A stretch of 63,764 bases of DNA, filler included, from Chiloscyllium plagiosum (taxonomy: Eukaryota): NCBI RefSeq assembly GCF_004010195.1. It is 8 parts of 8 records of this genome, joined end to end, with 100 filler letters (N's around TTAATTAATTAA, not from the genome) between each part and the next. Parts side by side here need not be neighbours in the genome. Positions count along the whole stretch, not along the records: positions 32,628 to 47,995 come from NW_025208844.1; 7 more parts are not named here. One strand, given 5' to 3'. The position numbers and the translations under genes are program-made. The notes beneath the pieces were generated by a model, which saw nothing but the letters and a program-made list of their open reading frames with translations, made no database searches and was not told the origin of the DNA. Positions 10,672-63,764 of this stretch are shown here, one piece after another. Position 1 is the first letter of the stretch, and the number at the start of each line of letters is the position of its first letter.

Positions 10672-10748
10672 GTAAGTTGATTTTATTTTGTTTTTTGTTT
10701 ACTTCAGTCTGTAAAGCTATCTCTAATTTGGTATTTATTTTCCCACAG

Positions 10749-11040
10749 GCAAGTGTTTTGCACAAGATTTAAAGCAGAATCAACTTTCGTTCACCAGGAA
10801 AATGGGGAATACTATTTTAATTACGTGTGAGCTGAGTGAATCAATCGGTTCTGTCCCCATCCACTGGTACAAACAGGCATCAGGGCAACAACCTGTCTGG
10901 TTGCTCCTTAACGATGGGAAGGATAATACACTCAATGAAAAATTTAAAGCTGTGAAATCCGGACTCAGGCAACACTTACTGCGTATTGCAAATGTGCAGC
11001 CAGAGGATACCGCCACCTATTACTGTGCCTATTGGAGAGT
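10749..11040 (+). CDS. TRGV: TCR-gamma-like variable exon 1 (intact)
   Basis: In frame with the leader: QDLKQNQLSFTRKMGNTILITC..PIHWYKQ..VQPEDTATYYCAYW. IHWY and YYCAYW are V-gamma hallmarks; followed directly by a 23-RSS. Confidence 0.85.
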
Positions 11041-11079
11041 CACAGCGTGAAGCGGCAATTCAGTCCGCTTACAAAAAAC
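11041..11079 (+). promoter_or_regulatory. 23-bp-spacer recombination signal sequence of V1
   Basis: CACAGCG, 23 nt, ACAAAAAAC. Confidence 0.9.
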
Positions 11080-17173: not shown

Positions 17174-17354
17174 GTAAGTTTGCTACAAGAAAATTAAACC
17201 GTTTTGACTATTCACTCTGACACGGCATCGTTGAATGTGTACTCCATTCTATCCATGTTGGTTCTCTTATGAACTGCGGTATGATGAATTGTAAACACTA
17301 ACACCAACGGCATGGGTCTCTCTGATGAAAATAATTCTGTGTTTGTGTTTCCAG

Positions 17355-17652
17355 CTGCTGGTGAAGCCCTCGTCACCTTGAAGCAGGTTTTATCGCTCAC
17401 CCGGGCCACGGGGATGACGGCACGATTCATCTGTCAGATTGAAGGGTTGGATAACATAGCATCCCAACCCATCTACTGGTACCAGCAGAAAAACACAGTC
17501 ATTCGCGGGATAGGCGTTCTCCGGTCCCAGCAACTCACCTGGCTTCACACCGACTTCAACTCCCGATTCAATCTCGAAGTTGTGGAAAGTTCCACCCTTC
17601 TTATCATCAATGACATTGTACTGAGCGACACAGCTATCTACTACTGCGCTGT
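17355..17652 (+). CDS. TRGV: TCR variable exon 2, probably a divergent gamma family (intact)
   Basis: After TTTCCAG: ..LVTLKQVLSLTRATGMTARFIC..PIYWYQQ..IVLSDTAIYYCA. V-gamma-like FR1, same orientation and contig as V1, perfect 23-RSS. The gamma assignment is inferred. Confidence 0.7.
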
Positions 17653-17691
17653 CACAGTGCTTTGGTTGTGTTAAAACTTCGTACAAAAACC
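17653..17691 (+). promoter_or_regulatory. Consensus 23-RSS of V2
   Basis: CACAGTG, 23 nt, ACAAAAACC. Confidence 0.95.
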
Positions 17692-32527: not shown

Positions 32528-34949
32528 NNNNNNNNNNNNNNNNNNNNNNNNNNNNNNNNNNNNNNNNNNNNTTAATTAATTAANNNNNNNNNNNNNNNNN
32601 NNNNNNNNNNNNNNNNNNNNNNNNNNNTACACATCTTTACTCTTGATGTGAAATTAATGATTCGTGACACTATGAAAAGAGAGTGGTTTGCTCAGCCAGT
32701 CTGTACCATTGCCACAAAATGCCACAGTCACTCTGCATTTTATTCTGTCTTTTTCATTATTCCAAATAAACTTGAAATGGACGAGAGAGCAGAAAGGAAT
32801 AGAAGAAGCAAAGGTATTCAAAGAACAGAGGAAAGAAAGTCTTGGTCAATTAATAATTGCATTGCAAAAGCAAAAGGCAAATGTCTTCAATGACAATGAT
32901 ATCCAAGCGACAGGATAAGAAGTGCCCACTCATGAGATATTTAGTATAATCACAGCATAAGTATGTAATAATAATTGCTTCAGAAAAGTAAATGTGGACA
33001 TGAAGTTAACAGTGAGGTGGCCGACTTCAATTTTCAAATTACTCTGAAACTTTCGATGTAAATACAGATCCTATCTAATGTGCCATGCCAGAACAATACC
33101 CAGTGCTCCGTATATGATCTAACCAGGGTTTTGAAAAGCAGCAGCCAACCTGACTTTCAATTTTCTCTATCACAGCCACCACAACACGTTGAACGTCGAC
33201 TGATATAAATTAAGACATACTTGACTTGAAAATTGTCTTAAAATGGACATCAGATTTGAAATCAACTTCTTAAAATCATACATAGAGTTACACAGCATAG
33301 TAACGGACCTTTTGGCAAGCTTTTTCGTGCTAATCAGATGTCATATATTGATTGTGCTCCATTTGCCAGCATTTGATCAGTATCTCTCTAAACCCTTCCT
33401 ATTCATGTACCCATCCAAATAACTTTTAAATGTCATAATTGTACCCGCCTCCAAAACTTTCTCTGCCACCTAATTACTTCCATGCACCATCCACACACCT
33501 TTTTTATTGCGCTTTTATTATTTCACAAAACGTATCAGAGGCCAGACTGTAAGCCTAGATTTTGTCGGGTAAGGAAAATGCGTTTAATAAACACAAACTC
33601 TGCATATGCCCTGAAACTACGCGGAATCAAATTTAAAAACATAAGCAATATCCCCTTTCCATGTCCAGACCGTTGCAGTAGGATCATGAGTAATGCAATA
33701 CCGACTTGATCATGAGCCGTAAGTATTGCGAAGGGCGCATGTGCAATAAGGTTACTTGGTCTCTGTCAAATATGAAAGAAAGCAGAATGTGGGAGGATCA
33801 TTGGAGGTGGTTGCGCGAGCGTGGAGCTTTCATAAACACCGAGTGCACACCTCAAACCTCGAAAAAGACACTCATGGTCCTACACTGACAGTGAACTAAC
33901 CTGAAGATATTCTGCCACGTGTCTCAGCGACAAACCCCGACTAATGGTTGACATCTTTTTTGGTGGGACGCAATAGGCAACAGCGTGCGTGCACGCCAAT
34001 CCTGAGTTCAGAGAGGAAAGCCATGATTATATATGCAAAATGGACAGGGATGGAGTTTATAAAATCTTTTTGCAGGGGATTTACCCAAGGGGAATTTAAA
34101 GCAAGAGGAATAGTGAAGGAAGACTGGAAGTGCAAAGAAACTCAAGTCTGATAGAATCTTTGAAGGGAAATGCAGCGAGTCCAATAATGCAGAAGAGTGG
34201 CTGAACTTGAAATTTTAATCATAATTTACTCTCTACACATGCTGCTGTGCTAGCTATGTTATTCCTTCATTTCAGATCTCCAGCATTTGCAGTATTAAAC
34301 ATTTACTCAAGAGAAATATTTGGCACTTCTGCATTTCTATTCTGAACGGGTATTGAAGGCATTAATTACGTTTTATTTTTTCTGCAGTACATTTCAAGCA
34401 CGCAATTAATAGCTGAGAAGCTGAGCTCATCTGTCACATCAAGATACGACACAGAGTCGTGAAATTCATCATGTCTGAACATCATTTGTTTTGAAGTTGG
34501 AACACAAGTGTTCATTTATTCTGTCTGTCGGCAAAGGCTGCAACTAAGAATGAGAGCCACTGGGTGGAGAGCCAATTTCAATGGGTATGAATGGATTGGA
34601 GCCAGATAAATTGCAATCAAAATGATGGGTGAACATTGTATTGCTTTCAAGCAGAAATAGTTCTGACAAGATTAAGGTATGTCCCCATCAATGGTAGAGA
34701 CATTTGGTCGCAAAGCCAAAACTGTTTTAATGACAAAATAGAGAAAGAAATTGAGATTCCCAAGGAAAAGACACTTGTTGACAAACATGAAGTTGATAGT
34801 TCAATGATAACCAGGGCAAGTTTGGACTGTTCTGGGATAAAGGATTAAATAAATTTCAGAAGCAGAACGAAAGTTTCGAAAGATGGCAAAGCTAACTTGG
34901 CTGTGCAGCAAAGGCTGTTCAATAGGCATGTAACCAATAAATTTGCAAT

Positions 34950-35580
34950 TAAACGAAAATGCATTGAGTGTGGAGAAGACTTTAAAAGATCATCCAAACT
35001 GGACAGATTCAGTTTCACCCGCGCCAGGGACTGTGAAAAAGGTTTCAAATACCTGTCCGAGTTGGAAATGTATTGAAGCAGTCACACTGAGTAGAGGCCC
35101 TTCATTTGTTTGAAGTATGGAAAGGAATTCATTGGGCGTTCACATATACTGACACTGAGGAGAAAAGAGACCTTTTAAATATCCAAAATGCGAGAATTTC
35201 TATAAAAGTTCGAGTGAACTGAATCTTCACCAACGTGTTCATAATGACGAGAGGCAGTTCTTCTCATCTCACTACAGCACTAGATTTAAGTAATCATCTC
35301 AACTCGCTGTACATGAGCGAGTTCACACCACGCGACACCATTGTCCCGCCATGAGTGTGGGGAAATATTTATCACCTCATCCAAACGTTTGGCACACCAA
35401 TGATTCGCCTTGTGAATAGACCACATTCCTGTCTTGTGTGGGGGAAGGGTTTCACTAATTCATCTGAACTGCTGATGCTTCAGCGTCTTCACACTAGAAC
35501 AACGCCGTTCTTATGCCCTGAATGTGGGAAAGGATTCATTGCCGTTCAATCTGGTCATACAGCAACAAATTCACAAATGA
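34950..35580 (+). pseudogene. Decayed C2H2 zinc-finger array
   Basis: Fragments CIECGEDFK, HTE*RPFIC, SSQLAVHERVHT and GKGFTNSSELLMLQRLHTRTTPFLCPECGKGF, with stops and frameshifts. Confidence 0.8.
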
Positions 35581-35649
35581 TATCTCATTCATATCTTATA
35601 ACACATTGTTGTATGTCTTCACGTATACAACGAATCAAATATTTTGTAA

Positions 35650-35826
35650 TGCAAAGATGTGCAGGTCAGGTGAATTGGCCATGCGAAATTGCCCATAGTG
35701 TTCGGTGCGTTCGGGGTAAATGTAGGGGAATGGGTCTGGGTCGGTTACTCTTCGTGGGGCCGGTGTGGACTTGTTGGGCTGAAGAGCCTGTTTCTGTACT
35801 GTAGATAATCTAATCTAATCTAGTCT
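35650..35826 (+). mobile_element. HE1-like SINE, 3' half
   Basis: AAAGATGTGCAGGTCAGGTGAATTGGCCATGC.. through a (TAATC)n tail. Confidence 0.75.
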
Positions 35827-36487
35827 AAATACTTTGAAGAAGGTCTATTTTCGATTGGTCATTGAGAAGGTGATCACAGAGACATCCAAGGTGTCAGACC
35901 GACCCCGCAGTTTCCACTCGTGCAGACAACGGTTCCTAATGTTGTGGCTGAAGGGGTGTCACCAGGAAAGAGCTTTCCACTTATCTGCTGTGATTTGATT
36001 TATTTTTGTTGGGGACATCGATGACCTGGTGGTATATTTTAATGGTAGTTTGATAGAGTTTTCGGGGGACATGAGGAACAATACATTAACCAAATGACTT
36101 GCGAAAGTTCAATTCACTGCCTTTCAGGGTGGTGGAGGAGAAACTCAAAAGATATATAACAAGAATTTAGAAGGTCACTTACAATGTCAATAAATGTCTT
36201 CAATATCAGTGATCCTGACAATAATTCAATTTGTTTTAGCTTCCTTTACATAGTCCTACAATGCACACATGTCTTCCCGAAACTATAAGCGTTCTGGGAT
36301 TGGAAACCACCGTAGTTTAAGATTCGCATTTTTGTTTAGCTCCATGATTATAACAAATCCTGTCGAAGTAATCTCTGCAGAAACACAAACTTCTAAAATA
36401 TCTGCACTCATCTCATTCAGGTCTGTTATGTATTCTTGATGTAAATTGCTTCATGACTGGGGGCCATTCTTTTCAGTTGCACATGAC

Positions 36488-36825
36488 AGAAGTTCTGGAA
36501 TTACCTCCTTAAAGTGCTCCCCCTCAATGCATCCCTTTCCTCCTTAAATACAGCGAATTCCTCCGGGACCAACATATCTGTCACCTGTTCTGGTATCACC
36601 GAGGCAAAAAAAACAAAACATTCCCGTCCTGGATACCTGAAATAAAAACCGAAAGAAGTTCTGGAATTACCTCCTTAAAGTGTTCCCCCTCAGTGCATCC
36701 CTTTCCTCCTTAAATACACCCCTGAGAGAATTCCTCCGGGACCAACATATCTGTCACCTGTTCTGGTATCACCGAGGCAAAAAAAACAAAACATTCCCGT
36801 CCTGGATACCTGAAATAAAAACCGA
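36488..36825. repeat. Recent tandem duplication of about 165 bp (36488-36652 and 36654-36825)
   Basis: Two near-identical copies of AGAAGTTCTGGAATTACC...GAAATAAAAACCGA. Confidence 0.9.
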
Positions 36826-36899
36826 CATTGCTGCAGAAACTCGGCGTGCCTGGTAGTATCTGTGGAAGAGAAACGTTTCTAATTGAGAAAGACAGTTCT

Positions 36900-37260
36900 C
36901 CAGAACTGAAGAGACGTGGAAAATTGGTGGAATTTAGATTGTACTCAATGTTATACAATCAATGCCTCCCTCGTGTGGACTTGCTGATGTTTCAGCAGGG
37001 TGGAATGACTGAATGAATCTCTTCCACACTTCTGGCAGGTCAGTAGAGTTGGCTGAGTTTGATGCCACCAAAGTATTTTCTGCACAGAACGGGAAATGAA
37101 TCCTTTGTTATATACTGCATCGTTTCTCTGCTTTCGGAATCCAATTTGAAATAGAACATCCTTTATTATCCGTTCTGCTGAATCAGACATTTGAATTAAG
37201 CTTTGTCCACACAAGCAAGACAAGTACAGTTTCTCTTCACTGTGAACGGGGCTTTTTCCT
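36900..37260 (-). pseudogene. Second decayed C2H2 zinc-finger array, convergent with the first
   Basis: Minus-strand fragments HSEEKLYLSCLCGQSL and TCQKCG...STLLKHQQVHTRE (ORF 36951-37223). Confidence 0.65.
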
Positions 37261-37292
37261 CACATCTTCCAAAACCGACAATGTTTAAATAA

Positions 37293-37518
37293 TGAGGTTA
37301 AAAACAATGACTGCAGATGCTGGAAACCAGATTCTGGATTAGTGGTGCTGGAAGGGCACAGCAGTTCAGGCAACATCCAAGGTGCTTCAAAATCGACGTT
37401 TTGGGCAAAAGCTCTTCATCAGGAATATTCCTCATGAAGGGAATTTGCCCGAAACGTCGATTTCGAAGCTCCTTGGATGCTGCCTGAACTGCAGTGCTCT
37501 TCCAGCACCACTAATCCA
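37293..37518. repeat. Palindromic Penelope-derived hairpin repeat; related pieces at about 22850-23010, 45995-46080 and 56100-56190
   Basis: GGATTAGTGGTGCTGGAAG..CAGTTCAGGCA.CATCCAAGG ... CCTTGGATGCTGCCTGAACTG..CTTCCAGCACCACTAATCC. Confidence 0.7.
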
Positions 37519-39871
37519 ATGTTCAAATAATGATAAATTAGACGTCTTCTCCCAGTTCTCCAAGAATGGTTGGCTCAATTTTCCATCCGTCTGTCAATTT
37601 ACATTCCCTCTTCATTGCCTGTGAATTGATTTTAAATAGAAAAGCATCAGAGTGAGGACATTCAAAATTACGAAGGCAAGTTTTGAAATTGTGATGAAAG
37701 AACCTGATCATTTCTGGGGACATTACGAGGAAAACGTGACCAAGAACACCTATCGTATTGCCATTGAATCACGAATAGTTAAGTAATACACTGGCCTCTA
37801 TAGAAAGAGACAAATAGGAGAGGCAGGAGAAGAATAATCGGGTTATTCCTTTCCGACAATAGCACCGGAATGTTGATAGAATCTCCCAAGCCGTTCACTT
37901 CCATCAATCAGAAGGACCAGGGCAGCAGGTCTCACACATTTCACTTCAACGCGCACACTCTCCTGTCTTGCGTAACATCTAGTACTGGAGATATCGATGA
38001 CCAGTCACATCAACGAGTTCGTTCCAGGACGGAAAGAAGACCTTCGGCCCAGAGTCAATGCATCAGGTTCAGTGGCTCTTCTTCAGAACACCTGCATCGT
38101 CCCTGTGAGACACAACACATTCATAACTCGGGCATGTTTTTCGGGTGCAAAAAAATGCAATGATATTCGTACAAAACTACAGCCTAGTTACAGCAAAGAA
38201 CGGAGGCCTTCGATGACGCCTCAGTCCGCGTTACTCTCCTAGTTTATACTGCCTCACCTCGTTCCTCAACAAAGGTGTTGTTACACGATCTTGACAACAG
38301 GGCAGGAAAATGAAACTGCAGTCTCTTAGCTCTGTCATCACAGCTCTGACAGAGTACAGTTGCCTGACTCAGGGAATACTATCACTTAATTCCAGCTCTT
38401 TTGAAGCAACCTGTCTCTTTGGACTTATATTGGTACAGCCTTTTTCATTCAATCAGGGATCTGTTCTCACTCAGCAACAACTTGATGGCGAGAGCTTTCA
38501 CGTAGCAAAGCGTCTCGGAGTTTCACAGGTATTTCAGGTCATATTTAATCACATGACCGAATGCTTGGCCAAAGCGATCAGTTGTAGTGAGTGTTTTCAA
38601 GGAGGAAAACAAAGTCAAAGGTTTGCAAATATTTGGGGAGAAAATTCTAGGTTTCAGAGTCCAGGCAGCTCAACAGGAGCGTATTCGAAATCGGCAATGA
38701 AGTGTGTTCGGAATCGGTGTTCAATGCACGTGGGCCCACAGCCAGAAATATGCGGATACTGGAGATCGAAACTAATGATATTCAAGTGTTGGAGAGATTC
38801 AGCACATCTGACAGCATTTGTAGAACACGTTTCAAAGGTGAATCTTTGGAATCGGAGCATTAACTATCTCTGTCTCTGTGAATGCTACCAGCGCTGCCGA
38901 CTTCCTGATGCACTTGCTCTTTTTATAAAGGTCTTACAATCTTCTTGTTTATTGACATGTTGTAAAGTGAATGCCAGCTGAATCCACCTGTGCAATGGAT
39001 AGGGATTCACTTTAACAACCTTTTAAAAAGTCTGAATCGCAGTGTTTCACCCAGAAGAGGTTTTAGCAGAGGTTAAAGGGGAAATAAACAAAGTACAGTA
39101 ATAGAACAAAAATAGGAACATTCACAAGAGATCACACATCGTTAGCTATTGGTAAAGTCGTAGATGAAAAACATTCAGAATCCACAACCAACGCTAAACC
39201 CTCGTCCAGAGAGGAAGAGCAATGATACTTCGTCAGACTAATTGTTGGAATGGTCGGATTGTCCCTACAGTAAACTCCATCTGAATCCTCTACTGTATGG
39301 AAGAATGGGCGATAATCTTATTAAAACATGGAAAATCTTTCTCGGGTTAAATTATTACAAGGACTGTTGTAGAAACGGTTTGTTTAAATGTCTGAGAAAG
39401 TTAATTCATCATGTAAGTTCTGTGCATCCACCACAGCATTCTGACTGGATGATATCATTTTTGTCATCCTGACCTCAGTTGCATGACTGAGTGAAGCCAC
39501 GTGCTTTAAGGTTCAGGTTTCCTGATCAGATGTTTGACTCGGGTCCCACAGAGGTGCTCAACATTAAATAATCACCAACACTATTGAATTAACATGAGAT
39601 GGGGGTGAGGCAGGGAGTTAAAGAAATTGATGCTGGGGACAGTGGAGTGGGATCGCTGTTTTTGACTCCTTGCAGCAACATATCCCCACATTCTTTGTTC
39701 AATACATATGACTAAATGAACATGGATCGGGTACCCAGCTCATTACTGCGGGGCCAAGAAGGATTGCACGATGGCTGACAGAAAATGTCCTCATCTTCAA
39801 CCCAAACCCCTCCCTTTGTTCATTGCGCGAGTGTGGGAGGTGGCTACATATCTAGCTCACAGAGCTTGTGA

Positions 39872-39881
39872 AGTGACATAA
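39872..39881 (+). promoter_or_regulatory. CRE-like TCR V-promoter decamer candidate
   Basis: AGTGACATAA about 200 bp upstream of the NAR-TCR leader ATG; one mismatch to AGTGAYRTCA. Confidence 0.35.
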
Positions 39882-40079
39882 AACTGTACGTTCCCTCCTC
39901 AAAACCTACTTATTCAAACAGAGCACGCCCAGAGACCTTGATTCCACGGGGCTCTTTAATCACCTCGTGGACACTGCAAAACAACCCAATTCATCTGAAA
40001 TGCTTCAGTACAGGTCACGAAAGAAAATCCCAGAATAATTTGTCTTCCCATCATCAAACTATCAGCTCCAAACACGGGA

Positions 40080-40125
40080 ATGATGGGCATCCTCCATGGT
40101 TTGATCCTGTATGTTGGTTTACCCT
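40080..40125 (+). CDS. Leader exon of NAR-TCR V (MMGILHGLILYVGLP, phase 1)
   Basis: ATG at 40080, GTGAGT donor at 40126, 150-nt intron to TTTCCAG. Confidence 0.85.
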
Positions 40126-40275
40126 GTGAGTATCGATCACAGAAACAAACATTGCATGAAATTTAAAATACACTGTTGCCGATTTCGTCCACATTACAGG
40201 GATGGGTCTGCAGTTTTCACCGCGTTGTGTCGGTCAGTTGTAATGTCCGCTCATTTCTCTCTGTTTTATTTCCAG

Positions 40276-40562
40276 GTTATTTCAGTCAGTCAGTGACACA
40301 GAGCCCAGTAGCGGTTAATAAGAAGGAGTGTCAGTCTCTCACCATCAACTGTGTTTTTAAAAGTCGTTCTGTTCATCATTTTGAGAGTGGACATTTCTTT
40401 AGACAAACGCGGACAGCAACGGAATGGAAGCGGATCTCCAGTGGTGGGAGATTCGTTATGTTCACAGATAAAGCACAAAATTTATTTTCGTTGGAAATTC
40501 GGGATGTCAGAGTTGAAGACACCGCCACCTATTACTGTAAAGCTCGGTACCGGTACTACACA
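40276..40562 (+). CDS. NAR-TCR V exon (IgNAR-like V domain lacking CDR2)
   Basis: QSVTQSPVAVNKKECQSLTINC..HFFRQ..EWKRISSGGRFV..FSLEIRDVRVEDTATYYCKA. Short VNAR spacing, RISxGGRF and YYCKA motifs, and an extra FR1 Cys (40329-40331). Confidence 0.92.
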
Positions 40563-40600
40563 CACAGTGATGGGCCTCGGCTTCCCGTCGCTCAAAAACT
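40563..40600 (+). promoter_or_regulatory. RSS of NAR-TCR V (22-bp spacer)
   Basis: CACAGTG, 22 nt, TCAAAAACT. Confidence 0.88.
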
Positions 40601-40902
40601 CTCACTGGAGATTGTTACAGAAACAAATTGACAACTGAGCCAATCTGCCCAGAAAATCCCACATTTCTGCCTCTCAGCTGCAAGTCAACCAATTTGCAAT
40701 TAGACTGCATTATTGTTTATAAAAAGTGTGTTTCACTGATAACAAGTGCGCTCTGATGGTGATGTCTTTTTTCAAGGCTTGTGTGGGTGAATCGAAGTTA
40801 GGAATGATTGATCCCAATTAAAGGAGACTGACGTGAGAAGTCAAACAACTGGAATCGGGATTGCAAATCAGCTGTCATGCCCAACTCCCAACAAGCCCTT
40901 GG

Positions 40903-40974
40903 AAGTTTTACACAGACTTATAGCACTGTGTCATTTTGGAGCAAGACACAGTGAAAGGAGCCAGATCACATACC
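40903..40974 (+). other. NAR-TCR D segment (TCATTTTGGAGCAAGA, 40931-40946) with 12/12 RSS
   Basis: AAGTTTTAC-12-CACTGTG, D, CACAGTG-12-TCACATACC; lies between the 22-RSS V and the 23-RSS J, consistent with the 12/23 rule. Confidence 0.85.
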
Positions 40975-41286
40975 TCTTTACAATTAAATTACAAATTCTC
41001 CGTCCCCAATAGTTAATTGTCAGCTTGAAGTTCACTTCGCTGTAATGCAGGTTGATATCTTTTCAATCTGCAGCAAGCACTAATTTCTTTACTCGATTCT
41101 TCTTCGCTGATATGAAGTGAAAATCCACCTCATGTATTCCTGTGCCATTTGAGAGAAGAACAAGAGAAGAACTTGAGTCAAAGGAAACTTGGACACAGAG
41201 GATATGGTCTATTTATCTAAATCTCGTGAATAATTAGTTTGTTCAAGCAGGGTGCTGATGATTTTTGGATGCTTTGAGGTACCATT

Positions 41287-41325
41287 GGTTCTTGTACAGA
41301 GGAGACCGAGAGGAGTATTACTGTG
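41287..41325 (+). promoter_or_regulatory. 23-RSS of NAR-TCR J
   Basis: GGTTCTTGT, 23 nt, TACTGTG. Confidence 0.88.
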
Positions 41326-41375
41326 TTATTATGACCATGTAGATGGATCCGGAACGGCGGTTACTGTCACAGCTG
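41326..41375 (+). CDS. NAR-TCR J segment (YYDHVDGSGTAVTVTA)
   Basis: xGSGT-VTV J motif; phase-1 GTAAGT donor compatible with the acceptor at 43937. Confidence 0.9.
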
Positions 41376-43289
41376 GTAAGTGACTCTGCATTCCATCTTG
41401 CTATTCATTATGTTGCTGAACGATCGATTTATTTTTGTTAGTTTAAATGTAAAGAAAGTAAACAAATATCTCAGGAAAAATATCGCTTCTGCTCCAATGC
41501 CGGAGTTGCGTGTCAGCAGAATATGCGAATCAGGTCTTTGTTTCCTCGGGCGAAAACAACGAATGACACCTGGCCCTGAGTCAGCGGTTTCACTGTACCT
41601 GTGGTATCAATGGCCCAGCGGGTCCACAGAGGGATACCACCAACATGACGAACAGGTGCTTAAATGAAGGAGTACCGACTGTCTGGAATCGATTCTACGA
41701 GTTACCTGCGACTGAGGGAGCTCCGTCTGTTGCTTAGGTCTGTAAGAAAGAACTTTGTACCAGGCAGAGATTCAAGCCCGAATTTCAAAAGTTCAACAGA
41801 AACATTTAACCCACAAGAAAATCAGAAACACTACTCAGCGAACCTCAGATATAAGAGATCTGGCTGTATGTCAAGATGAATTATCCTATTTGAGGAATGG
41901 GTGCCAGGAATGATCGACTTGCTGTTTCTTTTCAATTCCTTTCATATATGCATTCATCTGACCAATCATACATCCATTTTACCAGCCTCCGAATTAAACG
42001 TGAAACTGTAAAGAATTTTGGTTTATTTAATGTAGGTATTTTGAGAAATCGATTTGTTGTAATTGGAACCAGTTCAAACTGAAGAATGCTCATTCGAGAC
42101 AGCAAGTAACAATTCATCGAAAGGAATATTTGACAATTTCTGGGGCATCGATCAAATTACAACTCCTCATCAAGCTGTTGAGTGAGTCATGCAGAGGGAA
42201 GGGCTGGAATGGGTTCTAGCCTGAAATGATAGTTAGACATTTGTTGTCCTTAATTGAGAATGACTCGATTGGTTTTCGAGCAAGTAAAGCTACGCTTCAC
42301 CAAGCATTCGCTTGGGATAGCGTTATTGTCTTCTGTGAAGCTATTCTGAAGCCTAAGCTCCATTACTTATCGTTTGAAAGAAGCAGAAGTGTTCTAATTT
42401 GAGCATATAGAATTTTAAGGGGTAGACATTATATGGAATTTTCTCCAAACAGGAAAGTCTATCCAACGGTCACAATTTGTGATTAAGGGACAGCAATTTG
42501 GACTACGAAGAGAAGAATGTTTTTCAGACAAACAATTGCCTTGAATTAGTGGCATTCTATATCTCAGAAAGTAGTGGAGACCCAAGCGTTAACTGCTATC
42601 GCTGGTTCTGTTTTGCATTAGGAGCAGCGAAGCACGAAGTGACTTCATGAAAATCTTAAATACGATGGCCTCGAAACTGGGATGGATGAGACTGAGGTCA
42701 GAGCAATCGGCCACTAGCAGAACAAATAAAGTAACAAAGGTGAAGAAATGTGCAAAATGTGGAACTTGCCACCAGAGTAGTTGGAGCATATTGTATTGAA
42801 TCATTTATAGAAGGTTTTGAAAATACAGGGAGGAGAATGGAATACACCAACACACTGTGTTAAATGGGAAATATGAATTAGATTTCAGGCAGAAGTGAAC
42901 GTTGGCATAAACGAGCAGCAATAAATCAGTTTGGCTGAATGGTCCTGTCTACAGTTTTACTGCAAAACTGAAAAGATTTCCACTCAGAAAACAATAATTC
43001 AATGAAAGTAATTGCAATTGAGGAAAATCTGAAAGGTAGTTTCCAATGTGTAACAGTAAAACCACCGTAGAGACACTACAGACAGAACCAAACAGACTGC
43101 TGAGAGACGTTTGTGCAGGTTGCCATGATCGCAAGAAAAGAAAAAGGCACAAAGGAAAACCAGAAATCAATTGATACAAAATTGTAATATTTCACGTCAG
43201 CTGTGAATGCTGTGAGAAGAAAGTGACGCGATTGGCGACAAAAGTGGATCAAAAATCGGGTATACTCCCATGAACAGAGGTAACATGCA

Positions 43290-43570
43290 GACAATGATTG
43301 AACTAACCAGTGCTGATCAAATCCGTCGTTTATTTTGGATCAAACAAATTATCAGGTCTCCCAAACCAAAGTTTTCCATTTGCCTGCGTTTGGCCTGTAT
43401 CTATTTAAACATTTCTGCCCATCATATGTTTCCAAACGAGTTTTAAATGATTTCACTATACCTGGCTCGAAGACTTCCTTGGAAATTCATTTCATATACA
43501 CTCCACGCTCTGTCATTTGTGTCCCTTTTAAATCTTTCTCCTTTCACCTTCACCTTATGCCCCCCAGCTT
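43290..43570 (-). mobile_element. Decayed CR1 3' fragment in the NAR-TCR J to supporting-V intron
   Basis: ccatttgcctgcgtttggcc..tatct.tttaaac..ttttaaatg..ccctttaaatctttc matches the other CR1 3' ends. Confidence 0.55.
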
Positions 43571-43937
43571 TCAAGATGACGACAAGATGATCGCTGGAGT
43601 TTGCCTGTAAACAGAATATGTGGATGCTGTCTTCTTCAGAATCCTTTGTAATTTTTCCTACTGCACTCACGTTCTCCATATAGCCCTGCATTATTTTTGC
43701 CTGATTCAGTTGCAATCGATTACCAATTTGAATTTTACTGTTGATTCTGTTTCCAGCAGCCGTTTTTGCAATGTATTGCACATCACAAGAAGAAGAATTG
43801 CCACCTCATCGCCTCATTGGTTTACATTCTGATAAAATATGACATATTCAAATCTAATATCAATAAAATGAACAGAATAACTCCCGTGATTTGCAATTTC
43901 AACGGAGACTCAATATCTGTTGAATGTCATCCCACAG

Positions 43938-44247
43938 GTTTCGGTTCCCTGGTGTCCCGGAGTCCACCACTCCAAACCTCTGCTGCGGGTGACACCGTTA
44001 CATTAAGCTGTGAATACTCAGGGATCTGCCAGTACACAGTTTACTGGTACTGTCAGTCCCCAGGCCAACCTCCGAAATATATGCTTCAAAGACACACCTC
44101 AGGAGAGCAGAATAAAGAAAATGTTGCAGGCGGACGAATTTCTGCTTCTCTTGACGCTGCGGCGAAAATCGGTTGGTTAATGATCTCGCAAACACAACTA
44201 AGTGACTCCGCTGTGTATTACTGTGCACTGAGTCGGCTCTCAGCCCG
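43938..44247 (+). CDS. TRDV: NAR-TCR-supporting TCR-delta V exon (leaderless)
   Basis: CCCACAG acceptor, phase 1; GFGSLVSRSPPLQTSAAGDTVTLSCEYSGICQYTVYWYC..LSDSAVYYCALSRLSA. Non-canonical CDR1 Cys; no convincing leader exon seen; in frame with the NAR J. Confidence 0.92.
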
Positions 44248-44286
44248 CACAGTGATACACATTACGGAGAGACCCGCACAAAAACC
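44248..44286 (+). promoter_or_regulatory. Consensus 23-RSS of the supporting V-delta
   Basis: CACAGTG, 23 nt, ACAAAAACC. Confidence 0.95.
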
Positions 44287-44535
44287 TGAACATGCTAGGA
44301 ATTACAAACAGAGTGCCACAGATCACGGAGACAGATCTAAAATACCTGAATATGGGGTGATTACAGACACAATAATACACAGCACGGAGAAAGATTTCAA
44401 GTAAATGTTACTCAGGGTGGAGTATATTGTTGTTGACACAGTAACACAGAGCACGGAGAAACCCACACAAGAAGCTGAACACGATGGGGTTAGACACCCA
44501 ACATCACAAAGTGCAGGGAGAGCTGCACAAAATCA
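44248..44535 (+). repeat. Tandem array of about five RSS-derived units (about 60 bp period)
   Basis: Heptamer-like starts at 44248, 44309, 44368, 44437 and about 44495; units 1-4 share the spacer core ACGGAGA. Confidence 0.75.
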
Positions 44536-46194
44536 TGTTGGCAGAGGCCTGAGGAGGTGGACTTTGAGCTCGGGTCTTGGATGGGTTTGAGCCGGATTGT
44601 CTTTATCCAGATTCAGCTCGATTGATTAGTATTGATTGCTTGTTAATGCACTGTTTGTAAAGGAAACATCCTGTTGACGGGAAGAATTCTCGCTTTATGT
44701 AAACCAGCGTCTAACATAATGCGTTTCTTCTTTACACACTGTTAATAGAAAATCAATCAGTTAAGGAGATGGCGTATTACATTTTACACAAGAGGTAAAC
44801 AGCATGAGCAAATTCGTCAATAACTCGTGTATGCTAATTGAATTATTATTCGAACAGGAAATGCGTGTTTGACAGATGGGAAACAGCAAAGGTTTGAGGA
44901 CTATTTGGTTTCCAGCTTCATGGGTGGGGATTGGCATGCATACCGAGTAACATTCCTCTGTACTATGTGAGTTCGTGATTTCAGTTTTCAGTTTATAATC
45001 TTTTCTGAAGAAACATAATTCTAAAAATACATTCAGACATCAGTGGCATGTTTCATTTCCAAAAAGCATGTTTCTGAGACATACCAATCTGGCTTCTCTC
45101 AGGAACTGCGCACAGGAACATTTAAACGAAAGTATATACACTTAAATTGAACACCGACTGTCAGAGATCAGTGATTTTGACACAGCAACACTTCAGGTAA
45201 TGTTCTGTTTTTTTTCTCTAGTGTTGATCAAAAGCAGGCTCGATATAATTGATTTCAAATTATTTTGAATTTTCACAGTCAGTTTCTTTTAGTTTCTTCA
45301 ACTACTTTGTTCTGTTTGTGGTTTATGCCATCGTGGGAGATTGTTCCAAAGTCTCTGAGTTGTCGGTTGGTTTCAGTTTGTATAGATTCAGCTGCGGTTT
45401 TACTGTTACTCAGTGGGGAGATTTCTCTTCAGCATATATGACCATCCCAATTCCCTCCAATCAATTGTTCGATTCTTTCCCATCTTGTGGGGGGCCTAGC
45501 TTTCTCTGAACTTTATATTATTAACAACCTGTAGAGCAGGTTCAGGACATTTACCTAATTTGATCCTGCAAATGTATGCCAATCACATGAACCTCCCTCC
45601 ACTTCACACTGAATGATATATTAACAGTTGGAATCATGCAAGTGTCTATTCCTTTCGCCATTCTTTCGCTTCCCTGTCCCATCTACTGCTTGCATGAGTG
45701 TTTGTACTCTATTCTAATATGCCTTTGCATGGATGCATTTGCCTTAATATCTCCATTTGTTGTTCTAGTGAACTTTGTCACGGAGTCACGAATTCAGTTC
45801 ATTTAACCAGGGCATCATTTAAAACATCCCTGTTCAGTCACCTTCTGGTTTCATATTTTCTGGAGAAGAGTGATCCAACTGCACACTTTTCTTCAGCCGC
45901 AAAATATAGATCTATAATGCAGGGAGTGAACTTGTGTGGAGTCAGTGCTCATCAGGTTAATTCCTTTTTACTGGATGGCATCGAATTTCTAGTCGGATGC
46001 TGCCTGAATTGCTGTGCTCTTCCAGCACCACTGATCTAGAATCTGGTTTCCAGCATCTGCAGTCATTGTTTTTACCTCGAATTTCTAGAATCTCACTGAG
46101 GAGATCAGCCACCATCATACCAAATACCACACAAGGCTCGAGGTTAGACTGCCCTTCTAACTTTTACTTTCGTGCACAACTATCGATAACGTAT

Positions 46195-46500
46195 TAGATT
46201 AGACTCCCGACAGTTTTTGAAACAGACCCGAAAGCCCAACAAGTCCACACCGGTCCTTCGAAGACTAACTCACCCAGACCCATTCCCTGACCTTACATTT
46301 ACCCCTGACTAATGCACCTAACACTATGGACAATATAGCACGGCCAATTCACCTGACCTGCACATCTTTGGATTGTGGGAGGAAAGCCACGCAGCCATAA
46401 AGAGAATGTGAAAACTCTACACAGGCAGTCGCCCATGACGTGAATCGAACCCGAGTCCCTGGTGCTTTAAGGCAGCAGTGCTAATCACTGAGCGATCATG
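46195..46500 (-). mobile_element. HE1-like SINE
   Basis: (ATTAG)n tail and reverse-complement SINE core and head. Confidence 0.8.
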
Positions 46501-48399
46501 CCTTTGCAGACATGTCTTAGTAACTATATAATTTATATTGAAAAGTAGGAGGTAGCAATCATTTTCTTTCTGAGCATTTTATCATTATAAATTCAACCAA
46601 TTTTGATTGCAGTTCTGCAATTCTCTGCAGTGCCCTGAATCCTCGGGATTTTGTTTTCACATCTTCTCAAGTCTTTTATTTGGATTTATTGACAAATCGC
46701 TTTCTCCGCTCTCAACATCAGAATATCGCAAAGCATAACGTCACTTTTATTTCTATTTTCAATTAATACGAATATTGAACCTTCTAACTTAGCCTAACTG
46801 GATTTCTCAAACGTTTTTTCTCTGATTTCTGAATTCAAGCTAAAATTTAAAATTTACACTAGATCCACTTTCCCTTGTCAAGAGTTTTTTTAAAACTATC
46901 TCAAATATCTGTGTCATTAAGATTTCCTTGCTATTGAACCTTCTATTTGATTGATCTAAGATACTTGCAGCAAATAATTCAGAAACAGAAAAACTTGATA
47001 ATTTCTTGATGAGCACATGCTCATTATAATTTTTCCAAGGCTAATGTCGAGTCCTCATCAAAATAACCTTTACTGACACCATTTTCCTACACAGATTGCA
47101 ATGACATTTCTTTTGTGGAAAATGCAGAATTAAAATAACTTTAATATTTAACAACTTTTTCAAAATGGGAGAGATAGGACCAGCTGTCCACTACAATTGC
47201 TCTGATTTTAATCATAAATTTATTAATGCAAGCAGAAATTCTTCTGAAAGGAGTGAGATGCATAGCTTTCCTTGCTCCAAGAATACGTGAAGAAAAGCGT
47301 GTTAACTGGCTTGGTTAAACCTGACTGATCTTGCAAGATGGACCATGGTTCTTAATGGAACCAACACCTCCTTACTGAGTTTTATAAGCGCAGTTAGTAA
47401 ATGGTTCTGTTTTATTCTGAAGTTAGTAGCGCGACGTTTGGGGACATGTATAACCTGTCTTAAGTTCTGATAACTTTTTAAACATTTTTTGTTACTTTAT
47501 TAATGAACAGTAACTCTAATTTATGTAGTCTCAAGACCATTATACATCGTTAAGGAGTCAGATTGGAGCAGATCACCATTTCTTTGGCCTGCTGCACATT
47601 GCTTTTAAATTAAATCTCTAATCATTTGACCCACGGTAGCTGTACTGGAAAGCTTTGAAGGAACAGTTTTCAAGTATATCTGGTCGGCATGGACGAGTTG
47701 GCTGGAAGGGTTTGTTTCTGTGCTGTGCGCCTCAATGACTCTATGCTCTGTGGTTATGGCTCCCTTAGTACTACCCCAGTTACAAAATTTTATTTTACGA
47801 GTTCTATCTCTTTAATCATTACATTTTTTTCCCATTGGAGCTAATGTTTATGCCAGTGTTACAACGTCAAAGGACCCCGTGCTCTATCTGACTTAGTTTA
47901 CATCTAAGTACGCTCTGTAACTCTTACAGTTTCACTAGGCCATGATTCTAATGTGTCCAGTCCGTGCCTCCTTGATGACCAGACAGAGCACGCAGNNNNN
48001 NNNNNNNNNNNNNNNNNNNNNNNNNNNNNNNNNNNNNNNTTAATTAATTAANNNNNNNNNNNNNNNNNNNNNNNNNNNNNNNNNNNNNNNNNNNNTGATT
48101 ATATTTCCAGGGCAGATGAAAAGTATACCAAGCGGTTGAGCGAACCAAAGGATGAAACATTTGGGTCGCTGACAATAATTTAGAATTCCTGTCTGGCCAC
48201 AGCAGTTGTGCCAAGTGAGTGTAGATCAGCCAACGTTGCACTGTTATGCAGGACGAAGGAAGGGATAAATAATGAAAACACAGATCTGTCAAGCTAGTCT
48301 CAGTGGTAAGGAAACTATTGAGAAGTGAAATTAGTCTTCATTTGGAAGATAAACCAACAATTTTTAACACGGTTGTATTGAGAGGAAGTCATGTGTAAC

Positions 48400-62750: not shown

Positions 62751-62821
62751 GGTTTTTGTATCGGTCATAATTGCAGTGTCACTCCAGCTATATCACTGTG
62801 AGACACGTTGTGTCAAATACT
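62751..62821 (-). other. IgH D2 (ATATAGCTGGAGTGA, 62779-62793) with 12/12 RSS
   Basis: GGTTTTTGT-12-TGCAGTG, D, CACTGTG-12-TCAAATACT. Confidence 0.9.
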
Positions 62822-63123
62822 ATGACAGACTGTAAACTGTAAAATGCAGAGAATTTCTTCACTTCCTAGAAAGCAGTGATTCAGACTCCTCTAAATATGA
62901 TTCAGTGTGTTATTTCAGCTTTTACGATCCATTGTATTTTGAAAGCTTGGAATACTTTTCCAGGTTTGGTCTGCATTTAACTTGACAATCAACACGAAGA
63001 AGGTAGAAAAAATTATACATTTGTACAAACTAGCACTGCTGGATTGCGTTCAAATTGCATCTCACATTATTTCTCGCTCCTGCCATGGTAGAAATCACCA
63101 ATTTGAGATAAACACTTGTCAGT

Positions 63124-63203
63124 GGTTTTTGTATGAGGATGTCGCTGTGCACAACACTGTGACCCACTGTAGTATCACAATGATGTAGACCAGTACACTC
63201 ATT
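63124..63203 (-). other. IgH D1 (ATACTACAGTGGGT, 63162-63175) with a 12-RSS on the V side and a 22-RSS on the D2 side
   Basis: GGTTTTTGT-22-CACTGTG, D, CACAATG-12-ACACTCATT; fits the known shark IgM V23-12D1(22)-12D2(12)-23J layout. Confidence 0.9.
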
Positions 63204-63563
63204 CTCTGTTCTTTACTCGAGGTCTCAATTTTCATTTGAAAGAGCCATTTAGTACTGATCATGTTTAGAATGAATGCCATAGTTGACATAACAATTAGCA
63301 GTGATTTCCTGAGCTGTCAGATATATTAAAACGAACATTTTGTCCGAGCATTTAATTGATGGAAGTGTTAGCAGTACATATGACATGCCCAAAACATCGT
63401 CCCATTGTGTCAGCAGTTTGCTAGTTTAAATGGTACATTTCCTCTTTGATAGTTTTGTAAGAGGCAGCCTGAGGTCTGCTTCAGATCGCAGTTGGTATAA
63501 TTGCATTTAAAACTCGTACTTACCGTCAGTTTATGATGGAATTGACAAAATGTTCCCTCGAGC

Positions 63564-63764
63564 TGTTTTTGAACGGGTCCAGCCCTGGTTCCTCTCGCTG
63601 TGGTCTCTTGCACAGGAAGAGATGGCGGTGTCTTCGATCTTCAGGTTCCCCATGTCCAACGCGAAAATGTTGTTTGAAGTGTCTTTGGACGCAGTAAATC
63701 GACCCTTAATCGCTGGTGCATAGTTATTGTAGGATGAATCATAGTAGTTCAGCAGCCACTCCAG
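63564..63764 (-). CDS. IGHV: IgM-type VH 3' half (63603-63764) and 23-RSS; truncated by the window end
   Basis: [54 protein letters not shown] followed by CACAGCG-23-TCAAAAACA. Confidence 0.9.

What the first reader, a model, noticed from the sequence alone, without database searches (positions are those of the whole stretch)
40080..44286. Complete, apparently functional NAR-TCR cassette (doubly rearranging two-V-domain TCR-delta)
Seen within one contig: leader, VNAR-like V with 22-RSS, D with 12/12 RSS, J with 23-RSS and donor, a 2.56-kb intron, then a leaderless V-delta with acceptor and its own 23-RSS. All splice phases match. Established: this is the cartilaginous-fish NAR-TCR, where two separate VDJ events build one chain and an antibody-like single domain sits on a TCR-delta V. 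The extra Cys in NAR V FR1 (KKEC, 40329) and in supporting-V CDR1 (SGIC, 44027) fit the proposed inter-domain disulfide. The system is known, but the D, J and leaderless V are easily missed by gene prediction.
Basis: partly seen in the sequence, partly recalled or inferred. Interest (0 to 1): 0.7.

Follow-up and report, generated by a model that had tools for sequence, protein, structure and literature searches.

The report
Intact shark double-V T-cell receptor cassette
This is an intact, unrearranged copy of a known shark immune-gene unit (NAR-TCR) that likely puts a nanobody-like domain on top of a T-cell receptor delta chain through two separate DNA joins; it is an ordinary member of its family, followed by a mostly decayed row of spare cut signals.

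Summary
Confirmed and known. Leader, NAR-type V, D, J, 2,562-nt intron and leaderless V lie at the stated places, with open frames and phase-1 splice sites. It meets the published NAR-TCR hallmarks: A-B loop Cys, no FR2 Trp, leaderless second V with CDR1 Cys. 39 database models from sharks and rays hit both V domains. Relatives lie in the TCR V array of C44, upstream of D-delta, 10 J and a delta-signature C.

Corrections: the D's 5' signal is weak and fits an 11-bp spacer best; the contig holds no D/J/C-delta; a third Cys (44051) was missed. Function is inferred, not shown; most C44 copies are broken.

Extra: supporting Vs carry a ~60-nt tandem row of 23-RSS units (7 of 7, against 1 of 38 conventional Vs). 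Here the spares are decayed, and as a set they show no significant selection as signals (p=0.27). The scan noted this row before on other DNA, including this genome. The cassette is a mosaic with its neighbours, with a switch inside the intron. Low interest.

The parts
40080..40125 (+). Leader (signal peptide) exon of the NAR-type V, phase-1 donor at 40126
   Evidence: matching leaders in 5 of 5 NAR Vs scanned
40276..40562 (+). NAR-type V exon; extra A-B loop Cys at 40329; canonical Cys at 40350 and 40536; Phe in place of the FR2 Trp
   Evidence: (best hit a VNAR, E 5.7e-17)
40563..40600 (+). V RSS, 22-bp spacer
   Evidence: 21.0 bits
40904..40930 (-). D 5' RSS: perfect heptamer, weak nonamer, best with an 11-bp spacer
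   Evidence: 9.4 bits at 11, 7.1 at 12
40931..40946 (+). D segment, 16 nt, open in three frames
   Evidence: a homologous D in 9 other cassettes
40947..40974 (+). D 3' 12-RSS
   Evidence: 12.1 bits
41287..41325 (-). J 23-RSS
   Evidence: 21.4 bits
41326..41375 (+). NAR-type J (Asp-Gly-x-Gly in place of Phe-Gly-x-Gly), phase-1 donor at 41376
41376..43937 (+). J-to-supporting-V intron, 2,562 nt; similarity switch near 42,500 against the C44:12.18 Mb copy
43938..44247 (+). Leaderless supporting V exon; CDR1 Cys at 44027; extra FR2 Cys at 44051; canonical Cys at 44009 and 44222
44248..44286 (+). Perfect 23-RSS of the supporting V (unit 1 of the row)
   Evidence: 27.1 bits
44309..44545 (+). Four decayed tandem copies of the RSS unit at offsets +61, +120, +189 and about +247; only the copy at 44437 keeps a plausible signal

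Best explanation
This is an intact germline NAR-TCR cassette, which likely builds a three-domain TCR-delta chain by two separate V(D)J recombinations. Shown: the parts, open frames, splice phases, signals and family membership. Inferred from the 12/23 rule: RAG joins NAR V (22-RSS) to D to J (23-RSS) by short deletions (gaps of 368 and 379 nt); D is obligatory because the V and J signals are both 23-type. Separately, the supporting V's 23-RSS joins the 12-RSS of D-delta (or a J-delta) far downstream. Inferred: transcription starts at the NAR leader, and splicing links leader, NAR VDJ, supporting VDJ and C-delta. From the literature, as hypotheses: the chain pairs with TCR-gamma, the NAR domain binds antigen unpaired, and Cys 40329 and Cys 44027 form an inter-domain disulfide. 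The spare RSS units behind the supporting V are, in this copy, most likely decayed relics.
For: Anatomy. VNAR best hits for the first V. NAR Vs form one clade at 99/94 support, apart from conventional Vs. Leader-like exon found for 0 of 7 supporting Vs, 5 of 5 NAR Vs and 22 of 39 others (crude scan; three supporting-V contigs have short upstream DNA). 39 database models hit both V queries. Extra Cys in 38 of 39 (NAR A-B loop) and 37 of 39 (supporting CDR1) aligned models, the latter above the canonical Cys23 at 33 of 39. 8 of 64 models carry a constant domain, all 8 with the published delta signature and none with the alpha one. On C44: cassettes at 12.18-13.00 Mb in a V array, then D (12/23), 10 J, a delta-signature C at 14.569 Mb and 108 further J motifs. 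A copy with an identical NAR V lies at C44:12.18 Mb on the same strand as C-delta. A public DNA run covers all 30 bins of the region.
Against: No transcript of this copy was seen. Both D signals are weak (bottom 3% of 144 reference signals) and the V and D 5' spacers are each one base short. 7 of 9 cassettes examined on C44 have stops, frameshifts or lost parts, including the near-twin at 12.18 Mb (frameshifted supporting V, broken D heptamer). The contig is unplaced, so linkage to C-delta is inferred from relatives. The database models are computed gene models, not cDNAs that I could inspect. An unpaired third Cys (44051) occurs in only 4 of 39 models.
Confidence: 0.85

Rival explanations
1. 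A NAR-TCR cassette that looks intact but is silent or rarely used, because its D signals are too weak or its promoter is dead.
For: D 5' signal at the 1st percentile with an 11-bp spacer; 7 of 9 C44 cassettes broken; the near-twin at C44:12.18 Mb is a pseudogene.
Against: All heptamers keep CAC; both V frames, J and all splice sites are intact. Weak D signals are the rule in all 10 cassettes scored, so they are not a recent lesion. Epaulette-shark models keep 94-97% identical supporting Vs.
Confidence: 0.15
2. The pairing of this NAR V-D-J with this supporting V is an assembly chimera of two paralogues or haplotypes, not a natural unit.
For: Against C44:12.18 Mb the identity is 93-100% up to about 42,500 and 78-90% after it; NAR V 100% but supporting V 87.7%.
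Against: A second contig (C84158) follows the window at 95-99% across D, J, the whole intron and the supporting V, so the odd one out is the C44 copy. A third (C75653) shows the reverse pattern (NAR V 88%, 3' intron 94.7%), as expected from real crossovers in the intron.
Confidence: 0.07
3. The V-D-J is part of an IgNAR or other immunoglobulin cluster, and the second V is an unrelated neighbour.
For: The first V's best solved-structure matches are IgNAR V domains; Ig and TCR genes are linked in this region of sharks (PMC12227049 passages).
Against: No constant exon on the contig. The FR2 Trp of IgNAR V is absent. The same V-J-V order recurs in 39 models and across C44. No leader for the second V.
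Confidence: 0.02
4. The spare RSS units are a working device, either extra landing sites that draw RAG to the supporting V or alternative cut sites that lengthen its CDR3.
For: Present behind 7 of 7 supporting Vs against 1 of 38 conventional and 0 of 6 NAR Vs. In 4 of 7 the spares score 21-27 bits, as good as primary signals, against at most 12.3 behind conventional Vs. The frame here stays open for 154 nt past the first heptamer. An unnamed database protein shows five units (P0049).
Against: The 7 are paralogues, so they are not independent cases. Signal positions of 10 spare units are not significantly better kept than their spacers (20% against 25% mismatches, p=0.27). In this copy the best spare scores 10 bits, no better than chance hits behind 4 of 38 conventional Vs. 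Weak primary with strong spare is only a trend (rho -0.40, p=0.37, n=7).
Confidence: 0.3

Closest known systems
NAR-TCR of cartilaginous fishes (Criscitiello et al. 2006, not held; seen only as described in PMC1845163, PMC12227049, PMC5931798, PMC6795676 passages)
   Same: Leader + NAR-type V with A-B loop Cys and no FR2 Trp; own D and J; leaderless supporting V with CDR1 Cys; relatives in the TCR alpha/delta locus.
   Different: No difference in kind. Local traits: 22-bp V spacer, 11-bp D 5' spacer, extra FR2 Cys, and a row of RSS repeats that the passages I could read do not mention.
IgNAR V (VNAR)
   Same: Best solved-structure matches to the first V (E 5.7e-17); short CDR2 region; similar J motif.
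   Different: No FR2 Trp; followed by a TCR-type V instead of constant exons; one D here (three D in IgNAR is recalled, not from a call).
TCR-mu of marsupials and monotremes (PMC3457774 passages)
   Same: Three extracellular domains, with an antibody-like V on a supporting V.
   Different: Uses VH-related Vs in a separate locus; supporting V germline-joined or D-less; described as convergent.
Conventional shark TCR alpha/delta V
   Same: The supporting V is a V-set domain with a 23-RSS in the same array, able to pair with the same D-delta and J.
   Different: No leader, CDR1 Cys, its own group in the tree, RSS repeats behind it.

Membership tests
NAR-TCR | N-terminal V related to IgNAR V, with its own leader | tested here: met
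NAR-TCR | Cys in the A-B loop of the NAR V (PMC1845163) | tested here: met
   Cys at 40329; 38 of 39 aligned models
NAR-TCR | NAR V lacks the Trp of the WYRK motif (PMC1845163) | tested here: met
   Phe-Phe at that place; no Trp in 39 of 39 aligned models
NAR-TCR | Own D and J with signals that obey the 12/23 rule | tested here: met
   22 / 11-12 D 12 / 23; the C44:13.00 Mb cassette has a clean 12/12 D
NAR-TCR | Supporting V lacks a leader and has a CDR1 Cys (PMC1845163) | tested here: met
NAR-TCR | Lies in the TCR-delta locus and uses C-delta | tested here: inconclusive
   Own contig unplaced; near-twin and 8 other cassettes lie upstream of D/J/C-delta on C44; 8 of 8 C-bearing models have the delta signature
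NAR-TCR | Two independent rearrangements in one transcript | tested here: inconclusive
   The runs laid gave no test
NAR-TCR | Inter-domain disulfide (putative in print) | not testable with these tools
   The model of a homologue gives no coordinates; only conservation was measured
IgNAR | V-D-J followed by Ig constant exons | tested here: not met
   No C-set domain in 30 frames of the contig; J is followed by a V
IgNAR | Canonical FR2 Trp in V | tested here: not met
Conventional TCR V | Own leader exon upstream of the V exon (second V) | tested here: not met
   The only ATG-donor candidate in the intron is not hydrophobic

The most novel reading that the evidence does not exclude
The supporting V of NAR-TCR is the one antigen-receptor segment that carries a selected ladder of recombination signals: spare 23-RSS units draw RAG to it, or give alternative in-frame cuts, so that the second of two joins is made often enough. 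Cassettes with a perfect first signal, like this one, let the spares decay, and crossovers in the long intron shuffle NAR V-D-J modules among supporting Vs.
Probability: 0.25. Interest if true: 0.6.

Novelty: new member of a known kind. Interest (0 to 1): 0.25.

Why it matters
As a member of a known family it matters for annotation. Databases name these units 'uncharacterized', 'DSCAM-like', 'lachesin-like' or 'TCR alpha-like', and in this assembly few placed copies are intact (2 of 9 examined on C44), so intact copies on small contigs are easy to lose. It gives exact germline D, J and signals for repertoire work and is a natural single-domain scaffold on a T-cell receptor. If the RSS row is a working device, it would be a new way to bias V(D)J choice and would bear on how a chain needing two in-frame joins is made often enough; this copy, with decayed spares, is the natural control.

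Tried and rejected
Primary papers were not held: Criscitiello 2006, Ott 2021 (17), Deiss 2019 (18), Criscitiello 2010 (21). Their texts and supplements may describe the D signals or the RSS row. The supplement of PMC3964593 was searched with no hit for NAR-TCR or RSS, which may reflect poor text extraction.

Searches for the RSS row in print gave nothing relevant: 'tandem RSS / multiple RSS / duplicated RSS + shark + TCR' (0 papers); 'NAR-TCR + recombination signal + shark + locus + supporting' (41, 3 papers on other taxa, listing only); 'tandem recombination signal / additional RSS / extra RSS / redundant RSS' (42, 30 of 46 listed, none on shark TCR by title); 'NARTCR, cysteine, leader, supporting, shark' (65); 'shark, recombination signal sequence, tandem, TCR delta, leaderless' (71). 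Searches were general NAR-TCR searches. This is weak evidence of absence.

RNA: no RNA holder listed. Two single-cell runs and one RNA-guess run gave only repeat matches on the cassette. On the J/C-delta stretch the single-cell runs had no read on the C exon, so they are no test; one 177-nt contig of the RNA-guess run matches the start of the C exon over its last 119 letters, the rest not shown.

Structure: AlphaFold2 on an epaulette-shark homologue (P0002, 39-row alignment) gave two V domains, mean pLDDT 76.3, pTM 0.57, without coordinates. Foldseek gave only generic tandem-V hits, TM 0.3-0.4. No complex job was sent, because it would not give a Cys-Cys distance.

Tandem Repeats Finder does not see the RSS row here. 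A protein search with the translated row found only the query. A PDB search with the C exon did not separate delta from alpha; the published signature and gene order did. Selection on the spare signals and compensation for a weak first signal were tested and not significant.
Full report
Observation. The window is a pack of eight stretches. The finding lies in stretch 32628-47995, which is the whole unplaced contig G000:C95439. Both splices are phase 1 and keep the frame. The D is open in all three frames. The two extra cysteines are at 40329 and 44027.

Signal quality. On a matrix built from 144 V and J signals of this genome (median 25.1 bits, 5th percentile 15.0) the signals score 21.0, 9.4 (D 5', 11-bp spacer; 7.1 with 12), 12.1, 21.4 and 27.1; the intron background peaks at 7.4 over 9,840 positions. 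So the D signals are real but weak.

Identity of the domains. The first V matches VNAR structures best (E 5.7e-17) and lacks the FR2 Trp. The second gives only generic V hits in PDB. A tree of 51 V exons (81 columns, many forks open) puts the 6 NAR Vs in one clade (99/94) and the 7 supporting Vs in one group with a long-branch Ig-like V (90/79). Searches for longer proteins gave 54 of 771 and 49 of 69 candidates; 39 are hit by both queries, 64 in all, from sharks and rays. The closest are epaulette-shark models (supporting V 94-97%, NAR V 76-87%). These are computed gene models with names such as 'uncharacterized' or 'TCR alpha-like'. In 39 of the 64 that I aligned (chosen as short two-V models), the A-B loop Cys is in 38, the CDR1 Cys in 37, the canonical supporting-V Cys23 in 33 and the FR2 Cys in 4. 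A pattern count that parsed 49 of 64 gave 48, 47 and 46 with both.

Published definition. PMC1845163 (passages) lists leader, A-B loop Cys and missing Trp for the NAR V, and no leader and CDR1 Cys for the supporting V, and calls the disulfide putative. PMC12227049 (passages), PMC5931798 (passages), PMC6795676 (passages), PMC3457774 (passages) and PMC3964593 (passage) describe the chain as a three-domain TCR-delta made by two rearrangements, with pairing to TCR-gamma as a hypothesis. The primary papers were not held.

Locus. The contig has no constant exon (30 of 31 frames scanned). A DNA search found 15 matches and a protein search a V array on C44 from about 12.2 to 14.5 Mb. Downstream on the + strand lie one D with 12/23 signals, 10 J, a C exon at 14.569 Mb and 108 more J motifs up to the end of what I fetched. 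That C has the delta signature of PMC10322711 (passages); a C with the alpha signature is on contig C93099. All 8 database models with a C domain have the delta signature. I examined 9 cassettes on C44; only those at 12.32 and 13.00 Mb have both V frames open. The copy at 12.18 Mb has an identical NAR V but a frameshifted supporting V and a broken D heptamer.

Mosaic. Against that copy the window is 93-100% identical up to about 42,500 and 78-90% after it; contig C84158 follows the window at 95-99% throughout; C75653 has an 88% NAR V but a 94.7% 3' intron. Three sequences at 93% or more over D-J mean at least two loci. The simplest reading is crossover in the intron between paralogues (inference); mis-assembly of the C44 copy is not excluded.

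Leader test. A crude scan finds a leader for 5 of 5 NAR Vs, 0 of 7 supporting Vs and 22 of 39 others; the only ATG-donor candidate in this intron is not hydrophobic.

RSS row. Behind the supporting V lie four more copies of a ~60-nt unit (heptamer, 23-bp spacer, nonamer, linker). Among 51 V exons with a signal, from a sample of fetched stretches and not the whole array, a second unit in register is found behind 7 of 7 supporting, 1 of 38 conventional and 0 of 6 NAR Vs. A profile of the unit hits only the 7, but it was built from them. In 4 of 7 the spares score 21-27 bits; here the best scores 10, which chance hits behind 4 of 38 conventional Vs also reach. The 7 share ancestry, so the contrast is one event, not seven. 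Over 10 spare units the signal positions are not significantly better kept than the spacers (32 of 160 against 58 of 230 mismatches, p=0.27). Read-through tails of database models show the units in epaulette shark and five units in an unnamed record; tails in whale shark, sawshark and sawfish models look similar by eye, but my patterns caught only their first unit or none. I found the row before looking at earlier notes; 19 earlier findings in at least 11 genomes matched my search words, and the 8 shown all describe it. My paper searches did not find it in print, with the key papers unread.

Expression and structure. The runs offered gave no test of expression. A run that covers the intron as well, and so is DNA, holds the region in all 30 bins. 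A model of a homologue shows two V folds but gives no distances.

Mechanism. Shown: parts, frames, signals, family. Inferred from the 12/23 rule: NAR V to D to J by two short deletions; supporting V to D-delta and J-delta at long range (2.37 Mb, by deletion, if placed like the 12.18 Mb copy; most other cassettes face the other way and would join by inversion). Inferred: one transcript from the NAR leader. From the literature, untested: pairing with gamma, unpaired antigen binding, disulfide. Confidence 0.85 overall; about 0.97 for identity and lower for use of this copy.

Verdict. A new, intact member of a known family. Interest 0.25. The most novel open reading concerns the RSS row (probability 0.25, interest 0.6), for which this copy is the decayed case.

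Noticed in passing
window 44051: Extra Cys in FR2 of the supporting V, with no evident partner; in 4 of 39 aligned models (6 of 49 by pattern: epaulette shark and sawshark) and in the C44:12.18 Mb copy.
   Followed up: partly
P0021, P0030, P0032, P0035, P0041, P0043, P0047 (catshark models): Supporting Vs have Trp in place of the canonical first Cys, and three also lose the second Cys, yet all keep the CDR1 Cys: the supposed inter-domain Cys outlasts the core disulfide.
   Followed up: partly
window about 42,500; G000:C44:12.18 Mb; C75653; C84158: Similarity switch inside the intron suggests that NAR V-D-J modules and supporting Vs are exchanged between cassettes, or that the C44 copy is chimeric.
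   Followed up: partly
L058 (G000:C44 about 14,338,700, - strand): An Ig heavy-like V with a 23-RSS inside the TCR V array, a candidate TAILV-type segment.
   Followed up: no
window about 10,740-11,079 and 17,350-17,691 (stretch 1): Two other V exons with 23-RSS, unlike the C44 alpha/delta Vs in the tree (possibly TCR-gamma; not tested).
   Followed up: no
window 62,800-63,704 (- strand, last stretch) and about 32,495: Ig heavy-type pieces: a V end with an altered YYC motif and a 23-RSS, a perfect 22-RSS at 63161, and another V end cut by a stretch border.
   Followed up: no
window 35,355-37,259: C2H2 zinc-finger fragments below Pfam cut-off and a 173-bp tandem duplication (36488-36825) upstream of the cassette.
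   Followed up: no
G000:C44:14,552,209-14,688,528: One D, 10 J-delta, C-delta and at least 108 J-alpha motifs, many in near-repeating pairs; C-alpha lies on unplaced contig C93099.
   Followed up: partly
L032, L033 (G000:C17418, C22974): Supporting Vs whose second and third RSS units are perfect consensus while the first has 3 mismatches.
   Followed up: partly
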